Positions 9,684-48,284 of a stretch of DNA of 57,610 nucleotides are shown piece by piece. Each line of letters begins with the position of its first letter. Within the stretch, counting starts at the first letter, position 1. This DNA comes from a virus (lineage: Duplodnaviria; Caudoviricetes). Where the stretch lies: positions 1 to 57,610 of IMG/VR virus record IMGVR_UViG_3300047560_001024, one strand, 5' to 3'. Below the pieces are notes generated by a model. That model ran no database searches. It was not told where the DNA came from and saw nothing but the letters and a program-made list of their open reading frames with translations. The position numbers and the translations under genes are program-made.

Positions 9684-10234
9684 TGGCAGATATAATGATT
9701 GACATTGAGAGTTTAGATACAACTCCAAACTGTGTGATATTGACAATTGGTGCAGTATTGTTCGACCCTAAAGGTAACGGCATTATTGATAAACTAGAAT
9801 TGAGACCCACTATCGAAGAACAAACTGATATCTTCAACCGTTCTATTAATCCTGATACTTTGCGTTGGTGGAGTGAACAATCTGAAGCCGCCCAAGAAGA
9901 AGCATTAGGCGATAGAGACAGAGTATCATACAAAGAGTGTATGGATACACTATACAAGTGGTGCTGGAAGTATAACAATGGTAAAGTATGGAGTAACGGT
10001 GCAAGTTTCGACATTGTAGTTATGGAATCAGCATGGCGAGACCATAATCAATTAGCACCGTGGAACTTCTGGAACGTTAGAGACACACGAACTATCTATG
10101 ATATTTGTAATGTCAAACTTAAAGACGGTGGACATACAACAAGTCACAAGGCTGTAGAAGACGCAGAACGACAAGCTATTGTTGTTCAACAAGCATTTAA
10201 GAAATTGATTAAAGCAGAATTAGTTACACCATGA
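9683..10234 (+). CDS. DEDDh 3'-5' exonuclease (DexA/Rv2179c-like)
   Basis: MIDIESL (ExoI), WSNGASFD (ExoII), RDTRT, HKAVEDA (ExoIII). Confidence 0.9.
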   Translation: MADIMIDIESLDTTPNCVILTIGAVLFDPKGNGIIDKLELRPTIEEQTDIFNRSINPDTLRWWSEQSEAAQEEALGDRDRVSYKECMDTLYKWCWKYNNGKVWSNGASFDIVVMESAWRDHNQLAPWNFWNVRDTRTIYDICNVKLKDGGHTTSHKAVEDAERQAIVVQQAFKKLIKAELVTP

Positions 10235-10815
10235 AGTTTCAGTCAGACATAGATATTGACTTTGGTAACCGTGATGATATTCTAAAACATATCAAGCATA
10301 TACCTGCGGCTATGCGTAGAGTTCATCCTGTTCGTAAACATGCGACTGGTATCTATGTTACTGAGATTCCATATGACAGTGATAACGACATTGCTAACTT
10401 AGATTATACAGTAGCAGAAGAACGAGGATATGTTAAGATTGATATGCTGAATGTTCACGTGTACGAGCAAGTGCGTGACGAAGAACATTTGATTGAATTG
10501 ATGGATGAACCCGATTGGTCTATGCTTAAAGATAAAAAGATTGTGGAACAGTTGATTCACTTATCTAATCATTACGACAGCCTTCAGAAGATGCCTGAGC
10601 CAGTTGATACTATGCCCAGACTAGCTATGTTTTTAGCTGTGATTCGACCTGCAAAGAAACATCTTATCGGACAATCATGGAAGACAGTTGCTAATTCTGT
10701 GTGGGAAAAAGAATCAGACGGCTATCACTTTAAGAAAAGTCATAGTGTTGCTTATGCTCAGTTAGTGGGAGTTCATATGAATTTGTTAAGGCAGACGCTT
10801 AACAAGAGTAATTGA
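10231..10815 (+). CDS. mini DNA polymerase III alpha (DnaE)-like protein, catalytic/C-terminal half
   Basis: SDIDIDF, KHATGIY, GYVKIDMLN, AVIRP, GYHFKKSHSVAYA in DnaE order within 194 aa. Confidence 0.85.
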   Translation: MKFQSDIDIDFGNRDDILKHIKHIPAAMRRVHPVRKHATGIYVTEIPYDSDNDIANLDYTVAEERGYVKIDMLNVHVYEQVRDEEHLIELMDEPDWSMLKDKKIVEQLIHLSNHYDSLQKMPEPVDTMPRLAMFLAVIRPAKKHLIGQSWKTVANSVWEKESDGYHFKKSHSVAYAQLVGVHMNLLRQTLNKSN

Positions 10816-11166
10816 TTTGCGCTTACTCTTGCGCTTATTGAGTTCAAGCATACTACAGATTGGCCCATGAATGATGTTTAAACTCTTGTTATTGAACGTT
10901 CGTAGATAGGGTCTAAAGACAGTCCATTCTTCTTTTAAGAACATATTGATTGGGACTAATCTGTTTGATTCCCACCACCAGATATCTCCTAGTTCTAAAA
11001 ACTTCTCTCTAAGTTCGGGGCCGATGATTGCACCGTAGTCATAGATAGTGGTAACTATATCGTCCCTGTTTTGGACAATGCCAACGTAATCCTGTCCTGC
11101 ATAGGAGCAAACAGTGATAAACGGGTGGTTTTCGCTAAGGCGCTTGAAAAATTCGTTGTGTATCAT
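10786..11166 (-). CDS. hypothetical protein
   Basis: 126 aa ORF preceded by GATAAATA on minus strand (11188-11195). Confidence 0.75.
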   Translation of the reverse strand: MIHNEFFKRLSENHPFITVCSYAGQDYVGIVQNRDDIVTTIYDYGAIIGPELREKFLELGDIWWWESNRLVPINMFLKEEWTVFRPYLRTFNNKSLNIIHGPICSMLELNKRKSKRKSITLVKRLP

Positions 11167-11187
11167 TAAAAATAGACGTACTAGGAA

Positions 11188-11231
11188 TATTTATCACCTG
11201 GGCAAACCCAATATATTATTTGTCATAAATA
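11188..11231. promoter_or_regulatory. divergent pair of T4-like late promoters
   Basis: GATAAATA on minus (11188-11195) and ATAAATA on plus (11225-11231). Confidence 0.65.
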
Positions 11232-11249
11232 CAGCATAGGAGCCAATTC

Positions 11250-12002
11250 GTGTACTCAACATCAGTTTACTTTCAAATACCAAGACAAACCGTAGTGTTG
11301 TACTTTGGCGATTCAACAAGGAGATACCAAACCGTGTACGCTAAAAATCTAACATTACATAAGGGCGTTGATAACAGACTTCAATTCCAATTCATTAACC
11401 AGGAACAGAAGCCTGTGGATATCACAGACAAAGAGATTACTTGCAGAATCATCAGCCATGACGGGACAGTTGAATTAATCCGCAAAACATTGACACCATT
11501 GTTACCGCTCAAGGGTCTAGCAGAACTACAACTTCACGCAGATGATTTGCACGATATTGAGTCTCAACCTGGATACTACTCACTTGAAATCCCTGAAGGT
11601 GAGTTTGACTTACCGGTGTTTGTTGACTCTAATTCTGGTGCTAGAGGTACTATCAAAGTTGTTGATAGTGTTAAGCCAAAACATCAATCAAGTGATTTAC
11701 TAACTATCGAATCTCACCGTGAAGCAGTTCATTATGCTCCTGTAACATACTATAGCGGAGAATACTTAACTGATGGTAACCCATTGTTAACTACTCAAGT
11801 GTACTTTGAAGATTATACTGGTAACGTGCAGTTCGAAGGTACTACACTAACAGATAGTGATTGGTATGAGATTGGCGAGCCATATGTCTACGATACACAG
11901 AATGGCACTGTTTATTATACCATCGAAGGTTTTCACGCTAGAGTTCGTGTTAAGTTTGCAGACAGTGCAAACGGTAACGCAACTAAAATTTTAGTAAGAT
12001 AA
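11250..12002 (+). CDS. putative virion structural protein (two beta domains)
   Basis: GTG start with AGGAG SD and late promoter; KGVDNRLQFQFINQEQKPVDIT; C-terminal domain resembles ORF 57309. Confidence 0.7.
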   Translation: MYSTSVYFQIPRQTVVLYFGDSTRRYQTVYAKNLTLHKGVDNRLQFQFINQEQKPVDITDKEITCRIISHDGTVELIRKTLTPLLPLKGLAELQLHADDLHDIESQPGYYSLEIPEGEFDLPVFVDSNSGARGTIKVVDSVKPKHQSSDLLTIESHREAVHYAPVTYYSGEYLTDGNPLLTTQVYFEDYTGNVQFEGTTLTDSDWYEIGEPYVYDTQNGTVYYTIEGFHARVRVKFADSANGNATKILVR

Positions 12003-12015
12003 TATACCGATATCA

Positions 12016-12044
12016 TTGCAAGACGATACATACTATGCTAAAAT
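12016..12044 (+). promoter_or_regulatory. sigma70-type promoter, probably leaderless
   Basis: TTGCAA-17 nt-TAAAAT with extended TG; ATG 6 nt downstream. Confidence 0.7.
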
Positions 12045-12050
12045 AGTAGT

Positions 12051-13031
12051 ATGTTCGATATCATATCATTAATCCCGGGTAAGAAGAAACTAACGGGTAG
12101 CGGTTGGACTAGTTTCAACGCTATCTGTTGTGGTCACCGCGGACATAAACCTGACCGTAGAAGTCGAGGTGGGATTAAATTCGATGGACCCACAAATTGG
12201 GTCATGCACTGCTTCAATTGCGGCTTTAGTTGTAACTTCATACTGGGTAAAACTATCAGTCCTAAGGCTAGAGACTTCCTTAAGTGGTGTGGCGCAGATG
12301 AGGATCAAGTTCAACGATGGAACTTAGAAAGTCTACAAAACAAAGACTTGCTAGATTTTACACAACCTAGAAAGAAACGTGACCGCATCAAGTTCAAATC
12401 TAAAGATTTGCCCAGTGCAGAAATGTTAAGTGTTACTGATCCGAAACACAAACCATTTGTTGAGTATCTACAAAAACGAAATATCGATCCTACTAGTTAT
12501 CCCTTCATGGTAACTCCTAATGATAAAGATAGGTATGCGAATCGAATTGTTATTCCGTACACATATGGTAACAAGATTGTAGGACATACTAGTAGGTTCA
12601 CTGATAACAGAATACCAAAGTATATCAATGACCAGCAACCGGGTTATGTGTTCAACATTGATATTCAGAAACCAGATTGGCAAGTTTGTATTGTAACTGA
12701 AGGTATCTTTGATGCACTATCAATCGATGGTGTAGCAATCATGCACGATGATATTAGCCCAGAACAAGCACAGTTGTTAGCAACATTAAATAAACGCATT
12801 ATTGTTGTCCCAGACTTTGACAAGACTGGGATGAAGATTATAGATAGGGCACTAGAACTGGGTTACTCAGTTAGTCTACCGCAATGGGAACCCGGAGTCA
12901 AGGATGTAAACGATGCAGTAGTCAAATACGGCAAACTACCTACTTTACTTAGCATACTACAAAATGCTACAATGAGCAAGATAAAACTAGAATTACAGAG
13001 GAAGAAGATTGGCAAACAAAACGGATTCTAA
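12051..13031 (+). CDS. DNA primase (T4 gp61-like)
   Basis: Zn ribbon (ICC...HCFNC), RIVIPY, PKY, TOPRIM VTEGIFDA, PDFDKTG, KDVND. Confidence 0.92.
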   Translation: MFDIISLIPGKKKLTGSGWTSFNAICCGHRGHKPDRRSRGGIKFDGPTNWVMHCFNCGFSCNFILGKTISPKARDFLKWCGADEDQVQRWNLESLQNKDLLDFTQPRKKRDRIKFKSKDLPSAEMLSVTDPKHKPFVEYLQKRNIDPTSYPFMVTPNDKDRYANRIVIPYTYGNKIVGHTSRFTDNRIPKYINDQQPGYVFNIDIQKPDWQVCIVTEGIFDALSIDGVAIMHDDISPEQAQLLATLNKRIIVVPDFDKTGMKIIDRALELGYSVSLPQWEPGVKDVNDAVVKYGKLPTLLSILQNATMSKIKLELQRKKIGKQNGF

Positions 13032-14466
13032 ACAAATAGAATACACACCAGACGTACAGAAGTTATTTTTGCGAATGATGCTTACTAACGCCGAGTTGTA
13101 TACTCGGGTTATGAACATTATGAACAGTGAGAACTTTGACAAGAGCCTTCGCCCCGTAGCGGAGATGTTTAAAGAACACACTGACAAATATAAAGTGTTA
13201 CCTGATGTAACACAGATTCAAGCAATGACTGGGATAGAGATTGAAACTATTCCTGAATTGAATGAAGGTCATAATGATTGGTTCTTAGATGCATTCGAAG
13301 CATTTACTAAGCGCCAAGAACTTGAACGAGCAATTCTTAAAGCAGCCGACATGCTTGAGAAGGGCGACTTCGCTCCTGTTGAAAAGTTAATCAAAGACGC
13401 AGTGCAAATCAGTTTACAAAAAGACATGGGTACTGATTACTTTGCTGACCCTAAGGCACGTATCAACAAGTATTTTAACGCAGGTGGACAAGTATCTACT
13501 GGCTGGCCACAGATGGACAAGATTCTATATGGTGGTATGTCACGTGGTGAATTGAATATCTTCGCAGGTGGTTCAGGTTCGGGTAAGTCTCTTGTTATGA
13601 TGAACTTAGCATTGAACTGGTTGCAAGTAGGTATGAGTGGTGTTTACATTACACTTGAATTGTCAGAAGAACTAACCAGTTTGCGTACTGATGCGATGTT
13701 GACTGAAACCGGTACTAAGATGATTCGTAAAGATATCGATACTACTGACTTGAAAGTTAGAATGGTCGGAAAGAACTCGGGTAAGTATCGTGTTAAAGCA
13801 TTACCAGCACAATCAAACGTTAATGACATTCGTTCATACTTAAAAGAAGTACAGATTCAGACAGGTATCAAAGTTGACTTTGTGATGGTTGACTACTTAG
13901 ACTTGGTTATGCCAGTATCTGTTAAAGTTAACCCTAACGACCAGTTTATTAAAGACAAGTATGTAGCAGAAGAATTGCGTAACTTAGCTAAAGAGATGGG
14001 TATTTTGTTAGTTACAGCGTCACAGTTGAATCGCTCTGCTGTTGATGAAATCGAATTCGACCACAGTCACATTGCAGGTGGTATCTCAAAGATTAACACA
14101 GCAGATAACGTGTTTGGTATCTTCACAAGTCGCAGTATGCGTGAGCGTGGTAAGTATCAGATTCAGTGTATGAAGTCACGTAGTTCGACAGGTGTTGGTA
14201 TGAAGATTGACTTGGATTACGACATGGAAACTATGCGTATCTCAGACAGCGATCCTGACGGGTATGCTGACCAGCAAGCAAAATATCGCCCCTCACCTAG
14301 TCCCAACGATATTATGAGCCAGTTGAAACCACAATCAACACTGAATTCGTCTGAGCCGATAATTGACCAGACAACAGGGGAAGTTTTACAGCCCCTAGAG
14401 AAAAAAGTCGTAGTAGACGTTCAGGGTAGCAAGCTAAAAGCAATGCTAAACAATCTGAAAAAGTGA
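13009..14466 (+). CDS. replicative DNA helicase (DnaB/T4 gp41-like)
   Basis: Walker A GGSGSGKS, ITLEL, MVDYLDL, TASQLNR, KSR. Confidence 0.95.
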   Translation: MANKTDSKQIEYTPDVQKLFLRMMLTNAELYTRVMNIMNSENFDKSLRPVAEMFKEHTDKYKVLPDVTQIQAMTGIEIETIPELNEGHNDWFLDAFEAFTKRQELERAILKAADMLEKGDFAPVEKLIKDAVQISLQKDMGTDYFADPKARINKYFNAGGQVSTGWPQMDKILYGGMSRGELNIFAGGSGSGKSLVMMNLALNWLQVGMSGVYITLELSEELTSLRTDAMLTETGTKMIRKDIDTTDLKVRMVGKNSGKYRVKALPAQSNVNDIRSYLKEVQIQTGIKVDFVMVDYLDLVMPVSVKVNPNDQFIKDKYVAEELRNLAKEMGILLVTASQLNRSAVDEIEFDHSHIAGGISKINTADNVFGIFTSRSMRERGKYQIQCMKSRSSTGVGMKIDLDYDMETMRISDSDPDGYADQQAKYRPSPSPNDIMSQLKPQSTLNSSEPIIDQTTGEVLQPLEKKVVVDVQGSKLKAMLNNLKK

Positions 14467-14490
14467 TAAATATATAATAGGGACTTAATT

Positions 14491-14739
14491 ATGCAACGCA
14501 AAACCCGTAGTCTGCTCGAAGAATTAGAAGACCTTGGTAAAAACCGAGATACGAAGCACATTATTGAGAGCCGTGCCCACAACATCATCACTAGTGCAAT
14601 CAATTTGATTGAAATGATTAACAAGCACTATGATCCTGAAAAAGCACAGATTTTAGAGCGCAAGCTATTGAGTGCCATCAAGGCTAGGGACCAGTCTAGG
14701 TTCGCAAAGAGCCTAAAGAAAAATGATGAAGAGGCATAA
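14491..14739 (+). CDS. hypothetical late protein
   Basis: 82 aa; GATAAATA at 14465-14472. Confidence 0.75.
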   Translation: MQRKTRSLLEELEDLGKNRDTKHIIESRAHNIITSAINLIEMINKHYDPEKAQILERKLLSAIKARDQSRFAKSLKKNDEEA

Positions 14740-14786
14740 ATAAGTATATGAATCTATAGGATTCAACTTTTTAAAGGAAAAATATC

Positions 14787-15065
14787 ATGGCTTATACAAA
14801 TCGTGTACACGGCGGTTCAGCACCATTCTCAGCAGTTGGTCGTCAAGAATATTCATTGAAGTCTTTCTCTAAGACAAACATTACTCAAGCAGAATTAGAT
14901 GCTTTGGTAACTTCAGTTGCTCAATTGAACACAATTATGATGATTGGCGCATTCGAAGCTGGCGTTTCAGACGTAGTTCGTATGTTAGTTGAAGGTCAAG
15001 GCGTTGAGAACGGTAGCTTGTCTGCTGGTGGCGCATCTTTCACTGTTGCTGACGTAACATTCTAA
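14787..15065 (+). CDS. small putative virion protein
   Basis: CATAAATA at 14735, AAGGA SD, followed by terminator. Confidence 0.7.
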   Translation: MAYTNRVHGGSAPFSAVGRQEYSLKSFSKTNITQAELDALVTSVAQLNTIMMIGAFEAGVSDVVRMLVEGQGVENGSLSAGGASFTVADVTF

Positions 15066-15083
15066 TATTAACGCAAGTTAATT

Positions 15084-15113
15084 AAAAAGCCCCTAAAATC
15101 TAGGGGCTTTTTT
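15084..15113 (+). terminator. rho-independent terminator
   Basis: AAAAAGCCCCTA-aaatc-TAGGGGCTTTTTT. Confidence 0.9.
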
Positions 15114-15131
15114 ACCGCTATAAATATCTAC

Positions 15132-15581
15132 ATGACAACCAAGATTAGATGTACCACACTGTTTAACATCACTAAAACTGGGGTACCTAACCGCAGAACT
15201 CCTGCAGGAATACCCCAAGAGAAAGTAACTGAGTGGGAGAAGAATAGAAACAGTCAAAGTAACTTTGACACAATCATTCAGGTTCTCTCGTTGAGAACAC
15301 AACCTGAAGATATTTCTACTCCTGTGCAAGATATTATTGTGTTTAACGAAGCAGATAGGTTTGGGTTTCTGTTTGAGAATGAAGAAGCACAACCAATATG
15401 GACTTTTGACTTCACGGTCAACTACGATAATGTATATAGCGACGGAATCAATGATTTGGGCGCATTATACTCTGACTGTGACGGAGTACCCATGATTAAG
15501 AATCTAGGAGAGTGGAGCAAACTACCTAACTTTTTAGATTCTAGCGCAGAATTAAGGAATATTCACTTTGAAATTATCTAA
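15132..15581 (+). CDS. hypothetical late protein
   Basis: perfect TATAAATA at 15119-15126, 5 nt before ATG. Confidence 0.75.
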   Translation: MTTKIRCTTLFNITKTGVPNRRTPAGIPQEKVTEWEKNRNSQSNFDTIIQVLSLRTQPEDISTPVQDIIVFNEADRFGFLFENEEAQPIWTFDFTVNYDNVYSDGINDLGALYSDCDGVPMIKNLGEWSKLPNFLDSSAELRNIHFEII

Positions 15582-16056
15582 GTCCAAAGAAAAACGATTC
15601 TATAATGTTCTACATGACATTATTGCGGATACTGCATTCGACCAACTTGAGAGTAAGATTATCTACAAAGAGGGTAGTCAGTATAAGTTGTTTGGGCAGT
15701 ATACAATTGACAAAGTTGACACAGCATATCATGTAAGCAAGATTAACGTAGCTGGGGAAAAAGTATTCTCAGACCTACGTTATGCAGTTGCATGGTCTAC
15801 TTTAGACAAACTGAACCGTGTATGGGATGCAAATAGAATCTGTCAATTAGACAAACAGTTAGCAGATACTACGGTTCAATATAAACAGCATTCTAAGCTA
15901 CTTCAAAAAGCAAAGGATATCGATACATACGTCTTGTTCAAGACTAAAATCGGTGAAGATTTAGTAAAGCAGGAACTAGCTTCCCGCGAGATAAACGAAT
16001 ACGTGAGATTCGCTAAAAATTGGCAAAATAACGTCTTTCGTCAGGCTACTAAATAA
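15568..16056 (+). CDS. hypothetical protein
   Basis: 162 aa ORF, TTG start uncertain. Confidence 0.7.
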   Translation: MKLSKSKEKRFYNVLHDIIADTAFDQLESKIIYKEGSQYKLFGQYTIDKVDTAYHVSKINVAGEKVFSDLRYAVAWSTLDKLNRVWDANRICQLDKQLADTTVQYKQHSKLLQKAKDIDTYVLFKTKIGEDLVKQELASREINEYVRFAKNWQNNVFRQATK

Positions 16057-16099
16057 ATTGAAATTGATAAATACTATATCAGTTCTTTAGGGAAAAACT

Positions 16100-16837
16100 A
16101 TGAAACTATCAGAATTTAACAGCAATCCAACTACAGTCGCTAAGAGAGCGTTGGAAGAACACTTCAACACGAAGTTTAACGTTGACCAATTAGGCCTTTT
16201 CGAAACAAAGAAAATGCTTAACAAAGTCAAAGGTCTAATCCGCGAAAGCAAGACTGTAGAATCACAAAACAATCCAGCATACTTGAAACTAGTATTCATG
16301 GAACAAGCATTGACACATCACTATGGTGATTTGAAAGCAATGCCAATGTACAATCAACGTATCGTTGTAGAAAACGAGCAAGTTGAGAAGTCACAAGTTA
16401 TCTTGGCTGCACAAGAGATGGTTGACTCAATCCAGAAGATGGTTGAGCAAGTATCTGACATGCTAGTTAAAGAATTACCAGCAGTTGTTGACGGTGTTAA
16501 CAGCGAAGTTGGTACAAACGAAGGTCAACAATTCAATGACCAAGTTACTCAAGCATTGACTTCATTGCAAGCAGCCTTGACTGGTTCAAAGACTGGTCTA
16601 TCAGGTGCTCTAGGTGTTATCACTGGTCAAGCAGGTGGCTTTGATGCTACTGGCGCAGCAGCAGGTGCAGAGCCTGACATGGGTGCTGAACTAGGTGGTG
16701 ATGATATGGGTGCTGAACTAGGTGGTGACGACTTAGGCGGTGATGATATGGGTGCTGAACTAGGTGGTGACGAAGCTCCAGCTGATTTAGAAGAACCAGA
16801 AGAAATCGCAGGGACAGTAGGTAGAGCTACTCGTTAA
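16100..16837 (+). CDS. putative head assembly/internal protein with acidic tail
   Basis: GATAAATA at 16066; MKLSEF start; helical core; acidic repeats. Confidence 0.65.
   Translation: MKLSEFNSNPTTVAKRALEEHFNTKFNVDQLGLFETKKMLNKVKGLIRESKTVESQNNPAYLKLVFMEQALTHHYGDLKAMPMYNQRIVVENEQVEKSQVILAAQEMVDSIQKMVEQVSDMLVKELPAVVDGVNSEVGTNEGQQFNDQVTQALTSLQAALTGSKTGLSGALGVITGQAGGFDATGAAAGAEPDMGAELGGDDMGAELGGDDLGGDDMGAELGGDEAPADLEEPEEIAGTVGRATR
16679..16773 (+). repeat. in-frame tandem repeat (MGAELGGDD x3)
   Basis: ATGGGTGCTGAACTAGGTGGTGA occurs three times. Confidence 0.9.
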
Positions 16838-16838
16838 T

Positions 16839-17162
16839 ATGAGACTCTTTGAGTTTGCGGACGCAGATCCATTACGTGTAAAGTTGACTGGCGTCGCTAG
16901 TCAACTTAACCAACTTGTCCAAGGCTCAACTGAAAAGCTTCCGACAGAAGAATTCTTAAAACTATTACGTCAAAATGGCGTTAACTTAGGTAAAGAAGAC
17001 TTGTTCGACATTGTGCATAAAGATCCATTGAAAAACATCATTGCCAATGTTAATGCACACGAAGTAACATTCAAAACACAAGAACCAGACGAAGCACCCG
17101 AAGGCGATGCTGACGAAAATGCAAAGATTCGACAGCAAATGGCAAGCAAACAAGTCGGTTAA
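16839..17162 (+). CDS. hypothetical late protein
   Basis: 107 aa; MRLFEF start. Confidence 0.75.
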   Translation: MRLFEFADADPLRVKLTGVASQLNQLVQGSTEKLPTEEFLKLLRQNGVNLGKEDLFDIVHKDPLKNIIANVNAHEVTFKTQEPDEAPEGDADENAKIRQQMASKQVG

Positions 17163-41800: not shown

Positions 41801-43218
41801 ATACGGATCCTGGATTCGTTCCATTCACTGTAGGACAACGTATTACTATCAGCGGTGCAACCCCGTCTGCATGGAACGGTATTAACAAAGTAGTTACTGC
41901 GGCTAGTAACACATCAGTCACATATACTATCACCGGTGGCCCAATAGCATCAATGACTGTGTATGGCAAGATTATCGGTGGAGGTAACCTAACTATTGCA
42001 GGCGACCATGCTGTAGGTGGAAATCATACAGTAGGCGGAACACTATCAGTATCATCAAATGCAAATACAGGTAACTTAGGTACGCTTCATGTTGTGGCTA
42101 CTGGTAATATTTCAAGTGGAAATATTTCTACTGGTGGTGTGTTGAACGTTACAGGTAATGCTAACATTGGTAACGTAGGCATTCAACATATCGTTGCAAC
42201 TGGTTCTGCAAACATTTCAGGTAACGCAGCTATCGCCGGTAATCATAACGTAACTACAAATACTAACATTGGTGGATTGTTGAATATTGGTTCGAACATA
42301 GCAGTGACTACAGTTTCTTCTAATGCAACCGCAGCAATAATTAACTATCTTGACCAAGGTTACACACCGTTCACTGTTGGACAATCTGTTACTACCGCAG
42401 GATTTACTACATCAGCTTGGAACATGTCGGGTAAAACTGTTGCTAGTGCTAACTCAACACAAGTTGTTCTAACTATCACAGGTGGTCCACTAGCAACTGC
42501 ATCTGGTACTATTGGTAGAGTTACTGGCGGTGGTAACGTAAACGTGTTAGGTGACCACTCTGTTGGTGGCAATCATGTTGTTACTGCTAACGCAAACATC
42601 GGTGGTATCTTAAGTGTCGTTGGTAATATCAGTGGTGCAAACGTAACAGGTAATCATTATGGCAGCGGTGCAGCATTGACATCAATGAATGCAAGTAATA
42701 TTACATCAGGTACTATTTCTGCTAGTGTTATCCCTACACTAAACCAAAGCACAACTGGATATGCGGCTACTATTACTGCATCAGCACAACCTAACTTAAC
42801 GTCAGCAACTAACTTGACAAGTGTTGGTACATTAACTGCATTGAACGTTAATGGTAATATCTCGCACACTGGTTCTGAACTTAGTGTCGGTGGATATTTG
42901 TTGAGAAGTATCGGTGGTGGAATTGCTGCCGCAGGTACAACACTTGCGGCTGCTACTCAGTTAACTAAGGATATTAACATCGTTACTTCTGCAACGGCAA
43001 GTTCAGCAGACGGTGTTAAGTTGCCGGCAAGTGTAGGTATGACAGTTATCATCGTTAACACAACAGCGGCTACTATCAGAGTTTGGCCAAGTTCAGGCAC
43101 AGTCGCTATTGAAAACGTTACTGCTGGATCATCATATCCATTAGCCCCTGGTGCAAGACTAATGTTTATTTCAGCATCAACAACACAGTGGTATGCAATG
43201 ACAGGCGTGTACGCATAA
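38863..43218 (+). CDS. long tail fibre/adhesin protein
   Basis: INTGAFPND..ADSIRSAF.KV.NNFTELY anchor; many GNAN repeats; three repeated globular domains; GATAAATA 38835. Confidence 0.88.
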   Translation: MSQQNINTGAFPNDSDADSIRSAFGKVQNNFTELYGVTLSTGVVSASAGAGISVNRTTGNVTISSLMPSITIQTTNNMQVGVGTASGSTATVNDTRANVTPFVIGLKDSITLTSVAATNLSGRLTANSGQQPNITSVGTLSSLTSSGNITAPYFIGNIVTPSITAVTYSAPGSNTQIVFNNQGNMSASQNLTFTGNALNLTGAFTGTGNITTTANVNSGNARLGNRVDANYYYGNFMGPALTAGQVTSSAQPNITQLGTLTSLDVQGTITVQQMTVLQEFVAGNITGNLVGGNITPPGEDTQILFNDGGVAQAVAGFTFSKSSNLLSISGNVQGANLVSQGVLSVTGNGNVGNLGTLNVVATGNVNAGNIVSPGLLNVQGNANVGNIGTDGILYVGGNANLGNVGTTNILASGDVQGANLIATGNLQGANLITQGILSVLGNANAGNIGTRHIEASGNANISGILRVTGNANVGNIGIRHVEATGNANVAGRLSVTGNANVGNIGTGVVSATGNISGANLSTGGVLSVSGNANTGNVGTQHIEATGNANIAGVIVVTGNANTGNLGTTHIDATGNANIAGRIAVTGNANTGNLGTQHIVATGNANINGAATITGNANIGNVGVTHFVATGTANATHFNASGNIVAGNVTSNGAMNIGGNHNVTSNTAVGGAVSIGSNLVTITATSTGGNSTITFADQGYTPFAVGATITVTGVTPSGFNGTKTVLAANATSVTFAGSTSGPQAVAGRVAGGGSLTLAGDHSVGGNATITGAATISGNANTGNLGTTHFVASGNANISGVMSVTGNANTGNLGTTHFVASGNANISGAATITGNANTGNLGTTHFVATGNANISGAATITGNANTGNLGTTHFVATGNANISGAATITGNANVGNVGTTHFEASGNANISGVMKVTGNANTGNLGTTHFVASGSALVSGNHTVGSNHFVTSNTAVGGDHSVGANLSIVTATSSATSATLTYTDPGFVPFTVGQRITISGATPSAWNGINKVVTAASNTSVTYTITGGPIASMTVYGKIIGGGNLTIAGDHAVGGNHTVGGTLSVSSNANTGNLGTLHVVATGNISSGNISTGGVLNVTGNANIGNVGIQHIVATGSANISGNAAIAGNHNVTTNTNIGGLLNIGSNIAVTTVSSNATAAIINYLDQGYTPFTVGQSVTTAGFTTSAWNMSGKTVASANSTQVVLTITGGPLATASGTIGRVTGGGNVNVLGDHSVGGNHVVTANANIGGILSVVGNISGANVTGNHYGSGAALTSMNASNITSGTISASVIPTLNQSTTGYAATITASAQPNLTSATNLTSVGTLTALNVNGNISHTGSELSVGGYLLRSIGGGIAAAGTTLAAATQLTKDINIVTSATASSADGVKLPASVGMTVIIVNTTAATIRVWPSSGTVAIENVTAGSSYPLAPGARLMFISASTTQWYAMTGVYA
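41188..41660 (+). repeat. 84-nt (28 aa) tandem repeats in fibre gene
   Basis: 41320-41403 and 41404-41487 differ at one base; unit GNANISGAATITGNANTGNLGTTHFVAT. Confidence 0.9.
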
Positions 43219-43233
43219 TATTAAGGAGAAGTT

Positions 43234-43863
43234 ATGAGAGTAACAGTAGAATTATTACAGGCTTTATGCCCAAAGACAAAGCGTTCAGTATTAGAGTTAT
43301 ATGCTGAACCGCTACACGAAGTAGCAGAATACTACGACATGTATGATAATCCACATCGTATCGCTGGGTTCTTAGCGCAAGTTGCACACGAATCAGGTGG
43401 CTTTAACTTTGTTAAAGAAAACTTAAACTATGGTGCTAAAGGCTTGATGGGAACTTTTAAAAAGTATTTCCCAGATGAAGCAACTGCAAAAGCATACGAA
43501 CGTCAACCTGAGAAGATTGCTAATCGTGTTTATGCTAATCGTATGAATAACGGTGATGAAGCATCGGGTGATGGTTATCGTTTCTGCGGACGTGGTTTAA
43601 TTCAATTGACTGGACGTGCTAACTATACTAAGTTTGCAGAAGACTTGGGTATTTCTATTGAAGAAACTGTAGCATATTTAGAAACCCCTGCAGGGGCTGT
43701 TAGCTCTGCTGGTTGGTTCTGGGACAACAACAACTTGAATCAATATTGTGACAAGGATGATTTTGTAACATTGACAAAACGCATCAACGGCGGAACAATT
43801 GGTTTAGAAGATAGAAAACATCACTATCACTTAGTTTTAGATTTGCTACAACATCAAGGATAA
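43234..43863 (+). CDS. glycoside hydrolase family 19 endolysin
   Basis: FLAQVAHESGGF, ENLNY, GRGLIQLTGRANY, SAGWFW, TKRINGG. Confidence 0.93.
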   Translation: MRVTVELLQALCPKTKRSVLELYAEPLHEVAEYYDMYDNPHRIAGFLAQVAHESGGFNFVKENLNYGAKGLMGTFKKYFPDEATAKAYERQPEKIANRVYANRMNNGDEASGDGYRFCGRGLIQLTGRANYTKFAEDLGISIEETVAYLETPAGAVSSAGWFWDNNNLNQYCDKDDFVTLTKRINGGTIGLEDRKHHYHLVLDLLQHQG

Positions 43864-43865
43864 AC

Positions 43866-46019
43866 ATGGCTCAACCAGTTTGGTTAACTGATGCAGGTGA
43901 CTTAGGTTCTTACCCATCAAATAGTAGTATTAGCATTCAGTTACAGTCTGAGGCAGTAGCACCTGCAACTAATATAACATATACGTTAATTAGCGGTAGT
44001 TTACCTACTGGTCAGCTAAATGCATTATCATTGTCAACTAGTGGTCTTATATCAGGTTTACCTGCAATCTTGAACGTTGATACTAAGTTCGACTTCACGG
44101 TTAGAATCACAGATGAATTCAGTAACTTTAGAGATAGAACATTCTCAATCACTGTTGCGGGCATTCAAAAGCCTACGTTCACTACACCTAAGGGTCAGAT
44201 TCTAAACATTTTAGATAGTAAGTGGACTGAGTTCCAATTACAATATTCTAATCCATTGCATGAACAAGTCGAAGTCGTATTGACTTCAGGTATTTTGCCA
44301 CCGGGACTAGACATAACTTCATCGGGTGTGATTAGAGGATATGCTGAACCGCCTCTCAACGGTCGCATTCCTGTAATCAAGACATATGATTTTACAGTCG
44401 CAGTTAAGAGTTCTTTAGGCATCCATACATCTACCTATTCTATTACTGTTAGAAACCATAGATTTACACATCCGTTAAACACTAGACCACCTGTAATCTT
44501 AAATAGTAGACCATTAAAATTGCCTTTAGATGCGGCCGATCCTTACTTTGATTATTACTTGATTAATGAAGACACTATCTATGTAGATAGCGGAGCGTTC
44601 ATCACATTTAAGATTATTGGTAAGGACTTTGACGGTGGCGATTTTGTTTATGAATTCAACGAACTACCACTGGGGCTTGTGGGAGATACTAAAACAGGAT
44701 GGATTAGTGGAAGACCTATTCTATCATCAAAGGGTATCAGTAAGTACAAGTTCAATGTAAGAGTTACAAAAGCAGATAACCCTACTATATTCAGCGAATT
44801 CTCAGAATACTTCTTTGCAGTTCGTAAAGAAGTTGTTCAAGACATTGAATGGATTTCACCTAGTGATTTAGGTATTATTTATAACGGTACAATAAGCGAC
44901 TTATCCGTTACAGCTACGTCATCGTTGCCATTGCAATATCGTATAGTCGGTGGTGCATTGCCACCAAACTTATCATTATCAGACACTGGCCACATTATAG
45001 GAAGAACTCCATTTCAACCCAATGAAGCACTAACGAAGAACGGTGATAAGACTGAGTTTACTTTTGCAATTCAAGCATACAACACTGACTATAACATGTT
45101 GAATGGGACTAAGACATTTACTCTTACAATTCAACAGTATTACGACAAGCCATTAGAGAATGTTTACATCAAGGCAGCTCCTGGAGTCCCCCAACGTAAA
45201 TTATTAAAAGCATTCTTAAATGATGAAACTATCTTCCCTACTGAAATGTTATTCAGACCTGAAGATCCTTACTTTGGTAAGTCATCGGTAGTTTCGTTTG
45301 TTCATGTATACGGTTCTGTGGCAGCTAGTCTAGAAACATACTTGTCTGCTATGGGCAAGAATCATTCTGATTTAAACTTGTTGATCGGTGATGTTAAGAC
45401 TGCTATTGCTAAAGACAAAGACGGCAACATCTTGTATGAAGTTGTTTATTGTGATATCATAGATGATGCTGACACCTCTGACAAGAGTATCTTCTGGGAA
45501 GTACCTATCAGTAGAAACTTAGGTCCATATGATACAGGCGCAGGTGAAATTTTTACTAGTGATGTATTTGGTAACAAGTTTCACACTAGTTTATCACCTG
45601 GTACAGTTAGAACGTTATACCCACCAGGGTTAAAGAATATGAGAGCACAAGTTGCATCGGTGCTAGGTCAAAACTTAGACAGCAATGTTCTACCTAAATG
45701 GATGACTAGTCAACAAGTTGATGGATCAATTATCGGATACATCCCTGCTTGGGTTATTTGTTATACAATAGCAGGCGCATCTGAAACTATTAGAGATAAC
45801 ATTATAAACAACATTGCATTCCCATTGAATACGGTTGAATTCACTGTTGATAGATATATCATTGACAAGAGTGGTACATTCAATTGGAATCCATACATGA
45901 CTGCAATGCCAGGATGGACTGAATTGCCTAGTGCAAGTCCAACTCCTAGCCCACTAGACACTGATGATTTGGTAGTCGTGTTTCCTGAGAAAACGATTCT
46001 ACCCAAGAACACATACTAA
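43866..46019 (+). CDS. putative Ig-domain virion/baseplate protein
   Basis: repeated SGxLPxGLxLxxSGxIxG and FTVR/FTVA strands. Confidence 0.8.
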   Translation: MAQPVWLTDAGDLGSYPSNSSISIQLQSEAVAPATNITYTLISGSLPTGQLNALSLSTSGLISGLPAILNVDTKFDFTVRITDEFSNFRDRTFSITVAGIQKPTFTTPKGQILNILDSKWTEFQLQYSNPLHEQVEVVLTSGILPPGLDITSSGVIRGYAEPPLNGRIPVIKTYDFTVAVKSSLGIHTSTYSITVRNHRFTHPLNTRPPVILNSRPLKLPLDAADPYFDYYLINEDTIYVDSGAFITFKIIGKDFDGGDFVYEFNELPLGLVGDTKTGWISGRPILSSKGISKYKFNVRVTKADNPTIFSEFSEYFFAVRKEVVQDIEWISPSDLGIIYNGTISDLSVTATSSLPLQYRIVGGALPPNLSLSDTGHIIGRTPFQPNEALTKNGDKTEFTFAIQAYNTDYNMLNGTKTFTLTIQQYYDKPLENVYIKAAPGVPQRKLLKAFLNDETIFPTEMLFRPEDPYFGKSSVVSFVHVYGSVAASLETYLSAMGKNHSDLNLLIGDVKTAIAKDKDGNILYEVVYCDIIDDADTSDKSIFWEVPISRNLGPYDTGAGEIFTSDVFGNKFHTSLSPGTVRTLYPPGLKNMRAQVASVLGQNLDSNVLPKWMTSQQVDGSIIGYIPAWVICYTIAGASETIRDNIINNIAFPLNTVEFTVDRYIIDKSGTFNWNPYMTAMPGWTELPSASPTPSPLDTDDLVVVFPEKTILPKNTY

Positions 46020-46039
46020 ATACTTCACGGAAAAATACT

Positions 46040-46852
46040 ATGAGTGACATTAATACAAACGGCATGAACATCAATTACCCTGTTCCAGGAATTAACAATT
46101 CTTCACAGGGTTTCAGAGATAACTTTGGTTCAATAAAAAACAACCTAGACATTACTAAAGATGAACTTTCAGACTTACAATCCAAAGTCTTAGTTAAGAG
46201 CGCATTAAACGGTACTACACTTAACAACGATATGGCAGGTGGTCAAATCTCTAATGTTGAGACTAAAACGTATAGAAAAAGTTCATATCATTTGGGTAGC
46301 GCATTAGAAGGCGTTATTGTTATTGATGTGACTAAAGGTGATGTACAGTATGGAACAGTTTCTGGCCCAGTAACTATTTACTTTGACAATTGGCCAGCGA
46401 CAACTGGTAACAAAGTAGTTCAAACTGAAATTCAAATCAGACTAATTGTTGAAGAAGGCTCAGTTATTACATTCCCTCCATCAACACATGATACTGATAC
46501 TGGAGAGTTGTTAAGTGGCCCAACAGCAAGCACACAGCAACTAGAAAACTTCGGCTCACAATACCTTGCCCCGGGTGTATTTAGTAACCAAGTAGGTGTC
46601 CCCAACGGTGTATCATTGCTAGTTTATAATATCAGTTCTATTGATTGCGGAACTACACTTGATATCTACCCAGTTAACAGAAACCAAAAAGCAGGTGGAT
46701 TGCAATTACGCACAATTACTGATGCTGTGGGATTACCCGGTGATGGTCCAGGTACCATCTGCTCAGACGGACAATACTTGTATCTATGTGTAGGTAATTA
46801 TGACGGGGAATCTCCTATCTGGGGTAGAATGCCGTTATACGTCATTTCTTAA
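46040..46852 (+). CDS. virion structural protein
   Basis: YPVPGINNSSQGFRDNF coiled-coil anchor; terminal G..G.I..D..YLYLC....W motif; TAAATA 46017. Confidence 0.75.
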   Translation: MSDINTNGMNINYPVPGINNSSQGFRDNFGSIKNNLDITKDELSDLQSKVLVKSALNGTTLNNDMAGGQISNVETKTYRKSSYHLGSALEGVIVIDVTKGDVQYGTVSGPVTIYFDNWPATTGNKVVQTEIQIRLIVEEGSVITFPPSTHDTDTGELLSGPTASTQQLENFGSQYLAPGVFSNQVGVPNGVSLLVYNISSIDCGTTLDIYPVNRNQKAGGLQLRTITDAVGLPGDGPGTICSDGQYLYLCVGNYDGESPIWGRMPLYVIS

Positions 46853-46888
46853 AAAGTTTCCACTCGTTGCTGACTACTAAATATTTTC

Positions 46889-47128
46889 ATGCAACATCCC
46901 TTCATTGACAACACAGAACTAGCAAAGTTGAGTATAGACGAAATCGGTAAGAAGATTACCGATTTAACCGACAAATTAAACTTTGCATCCCGTAGCCGTA
47001 ACGCACCTATGGTCTATCAATTGCAGATGGTTTTAGAAAACTATCGTGCAGTATACTCTAGCAAAATGGATGAACTGTTTAAAAAGCAGAATTCTCAAAA
47101 TCAAATCAACATCGAAGGTTCAAAATGA
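46889..47128 (+). CDS. hypothetical late protein
   Basis: TAAATA 46878-46883, 5 nt before ATG. Confidence 0.75.
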   Translation: MQHPFIDNTELAKLSIDEIGKKITDLTDKLNFASRSRNAPMVYQLQMVLENYRAVYSSKMDELFKKQNSQNQINIEGSK

Positions 47129-47739
47129 CCGCTAGAGTAAGTACAAACTTAAACTTTTTAGCTGGCGCATACTTCGGCGGCTCTTTCTTTATGAATTCAT
47201 ATGATATTGATTTGACAATGAATATCGGTACTGAATCAGTCGAAGAACAAAATATTGCGTTAGAGCGAATCAAACACTTAGTTCACGAGGTATTAACAGA
47301 TGCAATCTTTGTTAATCAAGCCGAAACACAAGTAATTGAGAAGTATGTTAATGCAGATTTGAAGGTATGCACTTTACCAGAAGATCCATATGACCAAGTG
47401 ATTGGTATCATGCTTATGTTAAAAATAAACGCAATTGCCGAAGGTAGATTGCTACTGACTGACATCTCAATCTGTTCTGACCTAAGCGACAATGTAAGTT
47501 GTATGATTGAAGTCGAAGACAACATTGGCCCTTTTATGTCAGCCGGGTGGTGGAACGAATGCTCATGCAAAATCAATGATGTTAAGATTAAGAACGCATC
47601 AAAGAAAGTTGTCAAACTGGTTAAACATAAAACAGATTGGTCAGACATTTATTTGGCATGGGATAACAGTAAAGCCAAAGTACAAACGCCCAATTCTGAA
47701 GTACTGTTTGCTAGTTTCGACAACAAAACGGAAACATAA
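47125..47739 (+). CDS. hypothetical protein
   Basis: ATGA overlap; 204 aa. Confidence 0.75.
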   Translation: MTARVSTNLNFLAGAYFGGSFFMNSYDIDLTMNIGTESVEEQNIALERIKHLVHEVLTDAIFVNQAETQVIEKYVNADLKVCTLPEDPYDQVIGIMLMLKINAIAEGRLLLTDISICSDLSDNVSCMIEVEDNIGPFMSAGWWNECSCKINDVKIKNASKKVVKLVKHKTDWSDIYLAWDNSKAKVQTPNSEVLFASFDNKTET

Positions 47740-47742
47740 CTC

Positions 47743-47771
47743 TTGTGTTCCTAGTATAAATCTGTTATACT
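47743..47771 (+). promoter_or_regulatory. sigma70-type promoter, probably leaderless
   Basis: TTGTGT-17 nt-TATACT with extended TG; ATG 6 nt downstream. Confidence 0.65.
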
Positions 47772-47777
47772 AACTAA

Positions 47778-48284
47778 ATGCGTAATGATAACTATGGTCA
47801 ACAAGTGTTGACCGAAAACGACCTATGTGACTTCTATCTTAAGAACCCAGATAGAACGGTTAAACGTGCATTGGTTGAAACAGCATTAAACATACCTGCT
47901 ATATTAGATTTGGACAACAAGCCCCAATTCACTATCTACCAAAAACCCTCAGGGTCAGTTGAGAACTTTGATAAGAAAAATCAAAGTCTTTGGTTCATCC
48001 CAGCAGAATACGCAGATTTTGATATTGCCAAATATGTATTAGACTTATGTGAGTCTGAAGCAGAGTTACAGCGAGTGGGAGATGAATTACTCAAGTTCCA
48101 AGAGCGTGACTTGTTCATGCTACTACGCTATTTGAAGTATTTGGTAGACACAATGAGACAAAACAAAGTAGTCTGGGGTGTAGGTAGAGGGTCTAGCGTT
48201 TCTAGCTATGTATTGTATCTACTAGGGGTACACCGTATAAATAGTCTACACTATGACTTGTCTATAGACGAGTTTCTTAAATAA
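47778..48284 (+). CDS. mini DNA polymerase III alpha (DnaE)-like protein, N-terminal half
   Basis: RVGDEL...YLVD...VWGVGRGSSVSSYVLYLLGVHRINSLHYDLSIDEFLK matches DnaE GPGRGS...LGIT.IDP..Y.L.FERFLN. Confidence 0.85.
   Translation: MRNDNYGQQVLTENDLCDFYLKNPDRTVKRALVETALNIPAILDLDNKPQFTIYQKPSGSVENFDKKNQSLWFIPAEYADFDIAKYVLDLCESEAELQRVGDELLKFQERDLFMLLRYLKYLVDTMRQNKVVWGVGRGSSVSSYVLYLLGVHRINSLHYDLSIDEFLK

What the first reader, a model, noticed from the sequence alone, without database searches (positions are those of the whole stretch)
10231..48284. Miniature family-C (DnaE-like) polymerase split into two intein-free genes 37 kb apart
Seen: 47778-48284 (168 aa) carries the GRGS motif and ends ...YDLSIDEFLK; 10231-10815 (194 aa) begins MKFQSDIDIDF and continues KH.TG, KIDML, IRP, F.KSH..AY. 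In DnaE these segments are contiguous (FERFLNPER..PD.D.DF), so the two genes are exact complements, and all three catalytic Asp positions appear retained. Together only 362 aa: no PHP, most thumb/fingers, HhH or OB domains; no intein halves. Both lie in sigma70-type transcription units. Inference: a heterodimeric stripped-down nucleotidyltransferase, unlikely to be the replicase; could be a primer-extending, repair or signalling enzyme, possibly with the adjacent DEDDh exonuclease.
Basis: partly seen in the sequence, partly recalled or inferred. Interest (0 to 1): 0.85.

Follow-up and report, generated by a model that had tools for sequence, protein, structure and literature searches.

The report
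Split mini polymerase III, jumbo phage

Summary
ORF 47778-48284 (168 aa) carries the GRGS nucleotide-binding motif of DNA Pol III alpha. ORF 10231-10815 (194 aa) carries the three catalytic Asp (D6, D8, D71 = E. coli D401, D403, D555) and the KSH steric-gate helix. The two are exact complements: in three natural single-chain proteins (375-376 aa) the N-half maps to residues 12-180 and the C-half to 183-375. Both halves are present, once each, in 13 of 13 complete cultured relatives (11 same-strand gaps of 15-116 kb; 182 and 224 kb in two circular records). Both are under purifying selection (dN/dS about 0.06). They co-fold with ipSAE 0.90 against 0.00 for the best control. Relatives hold a separate family B polymerase and no other Pol III domain, so this is an accessory enzyme and not the replicase. 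The adjacent exonuclease is a changeable neighbour, not a fixed partner. The promoter claim does not exceed chance.

The feature is not new. Iyer et al. 2021 (Viruses 13:63) described this minimal, split Pol III alpha of group 2.2 jumbo phages, and this scan has met it on other DNA several times. Activity and role remain untested.

The parts
47778..48284 (+). N-half (168 aa) of the split minimal Pol III alpha-like polymerase. It has an N-terminal region of about 95 aa, then the helix-turn with GRGS (G136-S139 = E. coli 361-364), and ends at ...DEFLK (= E. coli about 393).
   Evidence: ORF. Pfam PF07733 E 2.9e-8. PHROG 11127 E 2.7e-41. Gap-free alignment of residues 122-167 with E. coli alpha 347-392. 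22 invariant columns in 32 sequences. dN/dS 0.069 against L083.
10231..10815 (+). C-half (194 aa). It has the DxDxD strand (D6, D8, D10 = E. coli D401, D403, D405), K69 and D71 (= K553, D555), R139-P140, and K169-S170-H171 (= K758-S759-H760, the steric-gate helix). It is a compressed equivalent of E. coli alpha 397-781.
   Evidence: ORF. PHROG 11778 E 4.5e-52. PDB profile hits. AF2 pLDDT 96.2. VIA Z 8.6-9.3 to Pol III alpha. Column counts. dN/dS 0.059 against L008.
9683..10234 (+). Rv2179c-like DEDDh 3'-5' exonuclease, overlapping the start of the C-half by ATGA. It is context only: a neighbour specific to this clade, not a conserved partner.
   Evidence: Pfam PF16473 E 1.2e-34. ATGA overlap read. 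Present within 3 kb upstream in 23 of 72 loci, all with a C-half of 63% identity or more. The family is found in 1 of 5 complete relatives, 39 kb from the C-half there.
10786..11166 (-). Convergent 126-aa gene of unknown function (PHROG 11637) that overlaps the 3' end of the C-half by 30 nt. It is the most constant neighbour of the C-half. A functional link is not shown.
   Evidence: PHROG 11637 E 8e-30. Present in 67 of 67 related loci with at least 450 bp downstream. Annotated in the same place in 11 cultured phages (XacN1 has one extra ORF between). 35 invariant columns in 25 sequences. No Pfam, NCBIfam or PDB sequence match.
12051..14466 (+). Context: DnaG-type primase (12051-13031) and DnaB-like helicase (13009-14466), downstream of the C-half.
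   Evidence: PHROG 47 E 1.9e-41 and PHROG 19 E 2.1e-67. The same order is annotated in PA5oct, Atu_ph07 and Vibrio phage 2.275.O.
48609..50264 (+). Context: gp31/GroES-like gene (48609-48977), a 125-aa ORF, and a gp44-like clamp-loader subunit (49338-50264), downstream of the N-half.
   Evidence: PHROG 931 E 1.5e-14 and PHROG 168 E 7.9e-72. The same order is annotated in 121Q and SCTP-2, and the chaperonin in PA5oct.

Best explanation
The two genes encode the two subunits of one small enzyme, the 'minimal split DNA polymerase III alpha' of group 2.2 jumbo phages. The N-half supplies the Gly-Ser (GRGS) loop that holds the triphosphate of the incoming nucleotide. The C-half supplies the three metal-binding Asp, the conserved Lys, and a shortened fingers helix with the Ser-His steric gate. 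The cut runs through the Pol-beta-like catalytic core, between the GS motif and the DxD strand, so an active site exists only when the two chains associate.

Shown here (computationally): homology to DnaE, complementarity of the halves, co-occurrence, natural fusions, purifying selection, a confident co-fold, and a separate PolB in relatives.

Inferred: the dimer adds dNMPs to a primer on a template with two Mg2+. Because it lacks a thumb, clamp-binding, HhH and OB modules, it would be poorly processive. It would then act as an accessory DNA polymerase of the T4-type replisome, in primer extension, lagging-strand or gap filling, or repair, beside the PolB replicase.
For: 1. Homology and active site. 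Pfam and PHROG hits. PDB profile hits to E. coli, Taq and M. tuberculosis Pol III alpha at E 6e-6 and 1.5e-5. C-half model at Z 8.6-9.3 to Pol III alpha only. D6, D8, K69 and D71 kept in 82 of 82 rows, H171 in 81 of 82, GRGS in 32 of 32. E. coli D401, D403 and D555 are the catalytic Asp and D405 is an additional conserved Asp (PMC3919608, passage). H760 is the steric gate against rNTPs (PMC8485763, abstract and passages). Retention of the gate favours dNTP use.

2. One enzyme from two genes. Three natural 375-376 aa proteins carry N-half and C-half in one ORF, joined with 2-4 residues between them. Both halves are present once each in 13 of 13 complete phage genomes. The co-fold scored 0.90, with the best of 3 controls at 0.00. 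That mark was reached by 58 of 80 solved complexes and 2 of 110 mismatched pairs. The runs agree in at least 96% of contacts and the partner's pLDDT is at least 90. The interface brings N-half W133-G134, just before GRGS, against C-half I9-F11, the DxD strand. It also includes the N-half C-terminus (165-168) and the C-half N-terminus (1-12).

3. Selection. dN/dS is 0.059 (C-half) and 0.069 (N-half) against the nearest relatives.

4. Not the replicase. PolB is present in 5 of 5 complete relatives and in the nearest large relative G001, as a 910-aa frame. PHP is found in 0 of 5 and HhH_6 in 0 of 5. The fingers family gives only sub-threshold hits inside the C-half genes, in 2 of 5.

5. Replication context. 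The C-half lies before the primase and DnaB genes and the N-half before the clamp loader, here and in cultured relatives.

6. The same reading is published (PMC7824862; passages).
Against: No biochemical or genetic test was found in the papers searched.

The enzyme lacks a thumb, most of the fingers and any known clamp- or DNA-binding module, so templated synthesis is an inference from motifs.

The co-fold pass may rest on likeness to solved one-chain DnaE structures, and it used my own alignments.

The AF2 model of the natural fusion was poor (mean pLDDT 64.4). Its Foldseek hits to Pol III alpha were weak, with a best E of 6.6e-3.

The position aligned with E. coli R390 is an invariant Glu (E165). 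I cannot say what that means.

The window itself holds only about 15% of its genome and no PolB, so the presence of a separate replicase rests on relatives.

Conserved synteny of whole blocks means that neighbouring replication genes are weak evidence of function.
Confidence: 0.8

Rival explanations
1. The dimer is an active Pol-beta-fold nucleotidyltransferase but not a templated DNA polymerase. It might be a terminal transferase, a maker of a nucleotide signal, or a nucleotide or DNA-modifying enzyme.
For: Only the catalytic core and a stump of the fingers remain. There is no thumb and no clamp-, HhH- or OB-type DNA-binding module. An earlier first-stage note of this scan (e1-5667662; untested) saw a C-half inside a sugar-nucleotide operon in another genome.
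Against: The fingers helix with the steric-gate His, which reads the sugar of an incoming dNTP in Pol III alpha (PMC8485763), is kept in 81 of 82 C-halves. The C-half model matches the palm plus fingers of Pol III alpha over 185-191 residues. The genes sit in replication-gene blocks in all relatives examined.
Confidence: 0.12
2. The pair is a catalytically dead remnant that serves as a structural or regulatory part of the replisome.
For: Extreme reduction, and no bench evidence of activity.
Against: All three catalytic Asp and the Lys are invariant in 82 of 82 rows, and GRGS in 32 of 32. dN/dS is about 0.06. Dead enzymes usually lose these positions.
Confidence: 0.04
3. Further DnaE pieces elsewhere in the genome (PHP, thumb, fingers, clamp-binding, OB) join these two to rebuild a full replicase.
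For: The window is only about 15% of its genome, so most of it is unseen.
Against: In five complete relatives there is one PF07733 hit over the cut-off each; Vibrio phage 2.275.O also has a second, sub-threshold one (10.6 bits, E 0.06) in a 618-aa frame, which I did not look at. No PHP or HhH_6 hit appears, and fingers hits appear only inside the C-half genes. All five hold a PolB. Iyer et al. state the same. Very divergent pieces could escape Pfam models.
Confidence: 0.03

Closest known systems
Minimal, split DNA polymerase III alpha of group 2.2 jumbo phages (Iyer, Anantharaman, Krishnan, Burroughs, Aravind 2021, Viruses 13:63, PMC7824862; passages seen; supplements not seen)
   Same: It has two stand-alone proteins from distant genes: an N-terminal NTP-binding part and a C-terminal Mg2+- and template-binding part. 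No other Pol III domain is present. A family B polymerase occurs in the same genomes, which are T4-like jumbo phages with clamp loader, DnaB and primase. The window's proteins are 48% and 52% identical to those of PA5oct, and fall in PHROGs 11778 and 11127.
   Different: Nothing essential differs: this is one more member, from an uncultured phage. The passages I read speak only of split forms. Single-chain natural forms and the constant antisense neighbour are not mentioned there. I did not read the whole text or the supplements.
Bacterial DnaE / Pol III alpha (E. coli 2HNH, 2HQA; Taq 2HPI, 3E0D; M. tuberculosis DnaE1 5LEW, 7PU7)
   Same: Same GS motif, DxD plus third Asp, Lys 553 equivalent, RP motif and KSH steric-gate helix, in the same order. 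The C-half model superposes on the palm and fingers.
   Different: It has 362 aa in two chains against about 1160 in one. There is no PHP, clamp-binding, HhH or OB domain. About 190 residues stand for E. coli 397-781, so the thumb and much of the fingers are gone. It is not the replicase of its genome.
Split-intein DnaE of cyanobacteria (recalled; only a search listing of papers seen)
   Same: A family C polymerase encoded by two distant genes.
   Different: There the halves carry intein pieces and are spliced into one full-length replicase, at another site. Here there is no intein, the cut lies between the GS motif and the DxD strand, and the halves must work as a non-covalent dimer.
Giant-virus SF2 helicase fused to a minimal DnaE core
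   Same: A PHP-less minimal family C core outside bacteria.
   Different: Those are single chains fused to a helicase in eukaryotic giant viruses. I did not compare the sequences.

Membership tests
Minimal split Pol III alpha of group 2.2 jumbo phages (Iyer et al. 2021) | [quoted passage not shown] | tested here: met
   The genes lie 36.96 kb apart on the + strand. The gaps are 15-224 kb in 13 complete relatives.
Minimal split Pol III alpha of group 2.2 jumbo phages (Iyer et al. 2021) | N-terminal protein with the NTP-binding (GS) subdomain | tested here: met
   GRGS at 136-139 aligns with E. coli 361-364. It is invariant in 32 of 32. PF07733 E 2.9e-8.
Minimal split Pol III alpha of group 2.2 jumbo phages (Iyer et al. 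2021) | C-terminal protein with the Mg2+-binding Asp and the template-binding part | tested here: met
   D6, D8 and D71 correspond to D401, D403 and D555 and are kept in 82 of 82. The model aligns with alpha 397-781.
Minimal split Pol III alpha of group 2.2 jumbo phages (Iyer et al. 2021) | No other Pol III alpha domain in the genome | tested here: inconclusive
   The window has one PF07733 hit only, but it is about 15% of the genome. In complete relatives PHP is found in 0 of 5, HhH_6 in 0 of 5, and no fingers hit lies outside the C-half.
Minimal split Pol III alpha of group 2.2 jumbo phages (Iyer et al. 2021) | Accompanied by a family B DNA polymerase | tested here: inconclusive
   None is found in the 57.6-kb window. 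PolB is present in the nearest large relative G001 and in G005 and G013, and in 5 of 5 complete relatives.
Minimal split Pol III alpha of group 2.2 jumbo phages (Iyer et al. 2021) | T4-like jumbo phage replication set (RFC-type clamp loader, DnaB, primase) | tested here: met
   PHROG 168, 19 and 47. CheckV completeness of 15% for 57.6 kb implies a genome of several hundred kb.
Canonical C-family replicase (DnaE/PolC) | Catalytic triad and GS motif of the Pol-beta-like palm | tested here: met
Canonical C-family replicase (DnaE/PolC) | N-terminal PHP domain | tested here: not met
   No PHP was found in either protein or in 5 complete relatives.
Canonical C-family replicase (DnaE/PolC) | Full fingers (PF17657), HhH_6, and OB or clamp-binding C-terminus in one chain of about 1000 aa or more | tested here: not met
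   The two chains total 362 aa. There is no Pfam fingers or HhH hit at threshold.
Split-intein DnaE | Intein N- and C-pieces at the split ends | tested here: not met
   The halves abut within 2-4 residues on the natural single-chain form. No intein family was found in Pfam.

The most novel reading that the evidence does not exclude
The mini Pol III is a dedicated hand-off polymerase. It would take the RNA primer from the bacterial-type DnaG primase encoded just downstream of the C-half, add a short DNA stretch, and pass it to the T4-type PolB. That would make it a two-polymerase fork like DnaE/PolC in Bacillus or Pol alpha/delta in eukaryotes (both recalled), run by the smallest family C core known. 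The naturally re-fused 375-aa form would then be the smallest single-chain C-family polymerase and a ready test object. The constant 126-aa antisense neighbour could be a third, DNA-binding subunit.
Probability: 0.2. Interest if true: 0.6.

Novelty: already known. Interest (0 to 1): 0.3.

Why it matters
If active, this would be by far the smallest family C polymerase, with an active site assembled from two chains, working beside an archaeo-eukaryotic-type PolB in one replisome. Iyer et al. proposed it as a model of the ancestral bacterial replicase core.

It is also very common. N-halves fill at least 7977 clusters at 90% identity, and C-halves fill 368 clusters at 50% identity.

None of this is new with this window. 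The value of the present check is confirmation, plus two handles for experiments. One is the natural single-chain forms, which a tree places inside split lineages and which therefore look like a secondary fusion. The other is the invariant antisense neighbour.

Tried and rejected
- The exonuclease as partner is rejected. It is adjacent or near in 23 of 72 loci only, all in the window's own clade, and its family is in 1 of 5 complete relatives.

- Sigma70-type promoters are not supported. Promoter-like sites number 10 against 10.5 expected, and 8 against 10.1 expected. A TTGTGT-17-TATACT element sits directly before the N-half start. The generalised pattern has 4 matches against 1.55 expected, a count reached in 5 of 100 shuffles.

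- Single-sequence PDB searches were weak. The C-half gave no DnaE hit and the N-half gave E 0.25. Profiles were needed.

- Megablast against phages found nothing.

- Alignment A3 put the N-halves onto the C-terminal part and was discarded. A4 was used instead.

- The fold of the natural fusion was poor (pLDDT 64.4). Its Foldseek rows 1-13 are all Pol III alpha, but at E 6.6e-3 or worse. Foldseek on the good C-half model also stayed above E 1e-3 (best 3.3e-3, probability 0.99). VIA-align gave the clear result.

The viral-contig scan found none. The metagenome scan gave one stand-alone C-half (L090) and two loci, L091 and L092; I read L091 only, and it holds an ordinary 1160-aa bacterial DnaE.

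- IMG/VR co-occurrence: 7 of 15 contigs of at least 43 kb that hold a C-half also hold the N-half, with gaps of 34-44 kb and one of 125 kb. From the coordinates, the 8 without it have only 2.5-41.9 kb of contig on the side where the N-half is expected. The one with 41.9 kb has the same identity and E-value to the window's C-half as the 125-kb case. These absences fit truncation, but that is not proven.

- Expression: the one RNA run laid (contigs, freshwater metatranscriptome) covers the neighbouring 89-aa gene (48291-48556) and parts further downstream, and gives no contig on the N-half. This is no evidence either way.

- The antisense ORF has no Pfam, NCBIfam or PDB sequence match, and its Atlas scores are 0.83 or lower.

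- Literature: searches found no bench study of the split enzyme. They cover only the held library. Of one search's 149 papers only 20 were listed, all on inteins or genome announcements. Supplements of Iyer et al. were not seen and may list members or fused forms.

Full report
WHAT THE WINDOW IS. The window is a whole IMG/VR virus record of 57,610 bases, classed as linear, with a CheckV completeness of 15%. It is therefore a fragment of a genome of several hundred kb. Its genes are almost all on the + strand (73 of 82 chosen ORFs). They include DnaG-type primase, DnaB-like helicase, gp44-like clamp loader, tail sheath and tube, PhoH and a Lon-like AAA+ protein. By tblastn, the nearest cultured relatives of the two genes in question are jumbo phages: PA5oct and kin, Atu_ph07, Phosso, Vibrio phage 2.275.O, the 121Q/GAP32/BF group, XacN1 and SCTP-2. 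Identities are 34-52%. Megablast finds nothing.

THE OBSERVATION. Both ORFs are as described.
- N-half (47778-48284, 168 aa): it matches Pfam DNA_pol3_alpha over the cut-off (E 2.9e-8, profile positions 42-94 of 260) and PHROG 11127. Its residues 122-167 align without a gap with E. coli Pol III alpha 347-392, so G136-R137-G138-S139 correspond to 361-364.
- C-half (10231-10815, 194 aa): it has no Pfam hit but matches PHROG 11778 at E 4.5e-52.
- A profile of 82 diverse C-halves hits only Pol III alpha chains of E. coli, Thermus and M. tuberculosis below E 1e-3. It aligns K69-I-D71 with E. coli K553-F-D555 and K169-S170-H171 with K758-S759-H760.
- A profile that includes natural single-chain forms aligns across the split point with E. 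coli 318-419. This puts the first two Asp of the DxDxD strand (window D6, D8) on D401 and D403, and D10 on D405.
- D401, D403 and D555 are the catalytic Asp of the C family, and D405 is a further conserved Asp (PMC3919608, passage). H760 is the steric gate (PMC8485763, abstract and passages).
- Column counts: D6, D8, K69, D71 and P140 in 82 of 82; H171 and H37 in 81 of 82; D10, R139 and G40 in 80 of 82; GRGS, W72, H152 and E165 in 32 of 32.

STRUCTURE. With the 82-row alignment, AlphaFold2 gives the C-half a mean pLDDT of 96.2 and a pTM of 0.89.
- Foldseek ranks 13 Pol III alpha chains first (best E 3.3e-3, probability 0.99).
- VIA-align gives Z 9.3 (rmsd 3.8 A, 191 aligned) to Taq alpha 458-840, and Z 8.6 (rmsd 3.9 A, 185 aligned) to E. 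coli alpha 397-781.
- The first 12 rows are all family C polymerases, and the next row has Z 3.9.
- So about 190 residues stand for about 385 of E. coli alpha. The second half of the palm and a core of the fingers are kept. By the sequence alignments, E. coli 405-538 shrinks to about 44 residues and 641-738 to about 10.

ONE ENZYME FROM TWO GENES. Four lines of evidence agree.

(a) Natural fusions.
- Among the 150 best of 368 representatives (50%-identity clusters) that match the C-half, one (P0141, 375 aa) matches at its residues 190-372. Its first half matches the N-half (37% identity over 105 residues).
- A search with P0141 found two more single-chain proteins of 376 aa (81% and 78% identical). 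The other hits were 11 stand-alone C-halves and 2 weak PHP-bearing proteins, 16 hits in all among 4262 candidates.
- In alignment A4, 21 of 21 N-halves map to P0141 within residues 1-180 (20 of them to 12-180), all ending at 180, and 7 of 7 C-halves map to 183/185-375. The halves are exact complements with a junction of 2-4 residues.
- A quick maximum-likelihood tree had 96 rows: the window, 81 near-full-length representatives, 11 C-halves and the 3 fused C-parts. The other 69 listed representatives, almost all of them shorter pieces, were left out.
- The tree places the three fused forms as one clade (SH-aLRT 100) inside a 12-row clade (98) whose other 9 members are stand-alone C-halves (midpoint root only).
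- The fusion therefore looks secondary, not ancestral, unless the root lies on that branch.

(b) Co-occurrence.
- All five complete genomes first examined have one N-half over the Pfam cut-off and one C-half.
- Eight further complete genomes, chosen through their C-half, all have exactly one N-half (8 of 8).
- Taking the C-half places of these eight, eleven records have the two genes on one strand, 15 to 116 kb apart. In the circular records of Atu_ph07 and Phosso the distances are 182 and 224 kb.
- In the window and in ten of the eleven linear-order cases the C-half gene comes first. In XacN1 the N-half comes first.
- In IMG/VR fragments, 7 of 15 contigs with a C-half also hold the N-half. 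The 8 without it are short on the relevant side (see Tried and rejected).

(c) Co-fold.
- With alignments A1 and A2 the score was 0.90 (three runs, 0.90-0.91), and the best of 3 controls scored 0.00.
- That mark was reached by 58 of 80 solved complexes and 2 of 110 mismatched pairs.
- The runs agree in at least 96% of contacts, and the partner's pLDDT is at least 90.
- The model supports binding but does not show it. It used my own alignments, and the pass may reflect likeness to solved one-chain DnaE.
- The interface is what a cut through one fold predicts. The loop before GRGS (W133, G134) lies on the DxD strand (I9-F11). An N-half strand (residues 65-74, with the invariant W72) lies on C-half 43-45. 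The two cut ends are both in the interface.

(d) Selection. Nei-Gojobori dN/dS is 0.059 for the C-half against L008 (87% identical, dS 1.39), and 0.069 for the N-half against L083 (88% identical, dS 0.98). More distant pairs are saturated.

NOT THE REPLICASE, AND NO HIDDEN PIECES.
- Family B polymerase frames of 900-1100 aa, or two adjacent frames in PA5oct and Atu_ph07, occur in 5 of 5 complete relatives. They also occur in 3 of the 4 larger IMG/VR relatives tested, including the nearest one, G001. The window itself has none.
- In the five complete relatives, PHP gives 0 of 5, HhH_6 gives 0 of 5, and the fingers family gives only two sub-threshold hits, both inside the C-half genes.

NEIGHBOURS.
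- The Rv2179c-like DEDDh exonuclease (PF16473, E 1.2e-34) overlaps the C-half start by ATGA. It is found upstream in only 23 of 72 related loci, all with a C-half at least 63% identical to the window's. Its family occurs in 1 of 5 complete relatives, far from the C-half. It is not a fixed partner.
- In contrast, a convergent 126-aa gene (10786-11166, minus strand, PHROG 11637, function unknown) is present in 67 of 67 loci with enough downstream sequence. It is annotated in the same place in the 11 cultured phages whose C-half region I looked at. It is more conserved than the C-half (97% against 87% in L008; 35 invariant columns in 25 sequences).
- Because the whole block (structural gene, primase, helicase) is syntenic, this adjacency alone does not show a functional link.

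WHAT IS KNOWN.
[quoted passage not shown] - They suggest it might cooperate with PolB in synthesis of one strand or in repair, and they offer it as a model of the ancestral enzyme (passages of sections 3.4.1 and 3.5 and the legend of Figure 3).
- I found this paper before opening the scan's notes. Those notes show that the scan has met the same thing on other DNA at least seven times, with the same verdict.
- Database and phage annotations already call the pieces 'DNA polymerase III alpha'.
- I found no bench study.

VERDICT. The feature is already known, and its activity and role are open. The natural single-chain forms and the invariant antisense neighbour are small additions that make the published hypothesis easier to test.

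Noticed in passing
window 10786-11166 (-): A 126-aa gene of unknown function (PHROG 11637) lies convergent to the C-half and overlaps its 3' end by 30 nt. It has a WWWESNR motif and a basic tail. It is present in 67 of 67 related loci and is more conserved than the C-half. It has no Pfam, NCBIfam or PDB sequence match.
   Followed up: partly
proteins P0141, P0271, P0272 (metagenome proteins, contigs of 2.4-5.9 kb): These are natural single-chain forms of the mini Pol III (375-376 aa). In a tree they nest among stand-alone C-halves, which suggests a secondary re-fusion. Their genomic context could not be fetched.
   Followed up: partly
NC_071039.1 about 217.6-221.4 kb; NC_042013.1 about 212.3-213.7 kb: The family B polymerase of PA5oct and of Atu_ph07 matches Pfam DNA_pol_B in two separate open frames (825 + 379 aa; 578 + 418 aa). 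The replicase itself may therefore be split in these phages.
   Followed up: no
AP018399.1 (XacN1) 121.7 and 137.1 kb, minus strand: The order of the halves is reversed here, with the N-half gene first and a gap of only 15 kb. In the window and ten other genomes the C-half gene comes first.
   Followed up: no
window 47743-47777: A TTGTGT-17-TATACT element ends 6 nt before the ATG of the N-half, and there is no Shine-Dalgarno sequence in between. This would fit a leaderless transcript. The generalised pattern is not clearly enriched (4 matches against 1.55 expected).
   Followed up: partly
window 48291-48556: A contig of a freshwater metatranscriptome run (coded X1) matches the 89-aa gene just after the N-half, with 6 differences in 266 bases. 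No contig lies on the N-half.
   Followed up: partly
window 54133-56412 (+) and 50541-51380 (-): A 759-aa protein with two AAA+ modules matches PHROG 4871 'ATP-dependent protease' at E 1.9e-230. A PhoH-like gene lies on the minus strand.
   Followed up: no
window 165 (N-half residue E165): The position aligned with E. coli Pol III alpha R390 is a Glu, invariant in 32 of 32 rows of A1 (N-halves and natural fusions). Its meaning is unknown.
   Followed up: no
proteins P0284, P0285: These are short (540-551 aa) proteins with PHP plus DNA_pol3_alpha domains that weakly match the single-chain mini form (E 6e-6 and 8.6e-4). They could be fragments or another reduced DnaE type.
   Followed up: no
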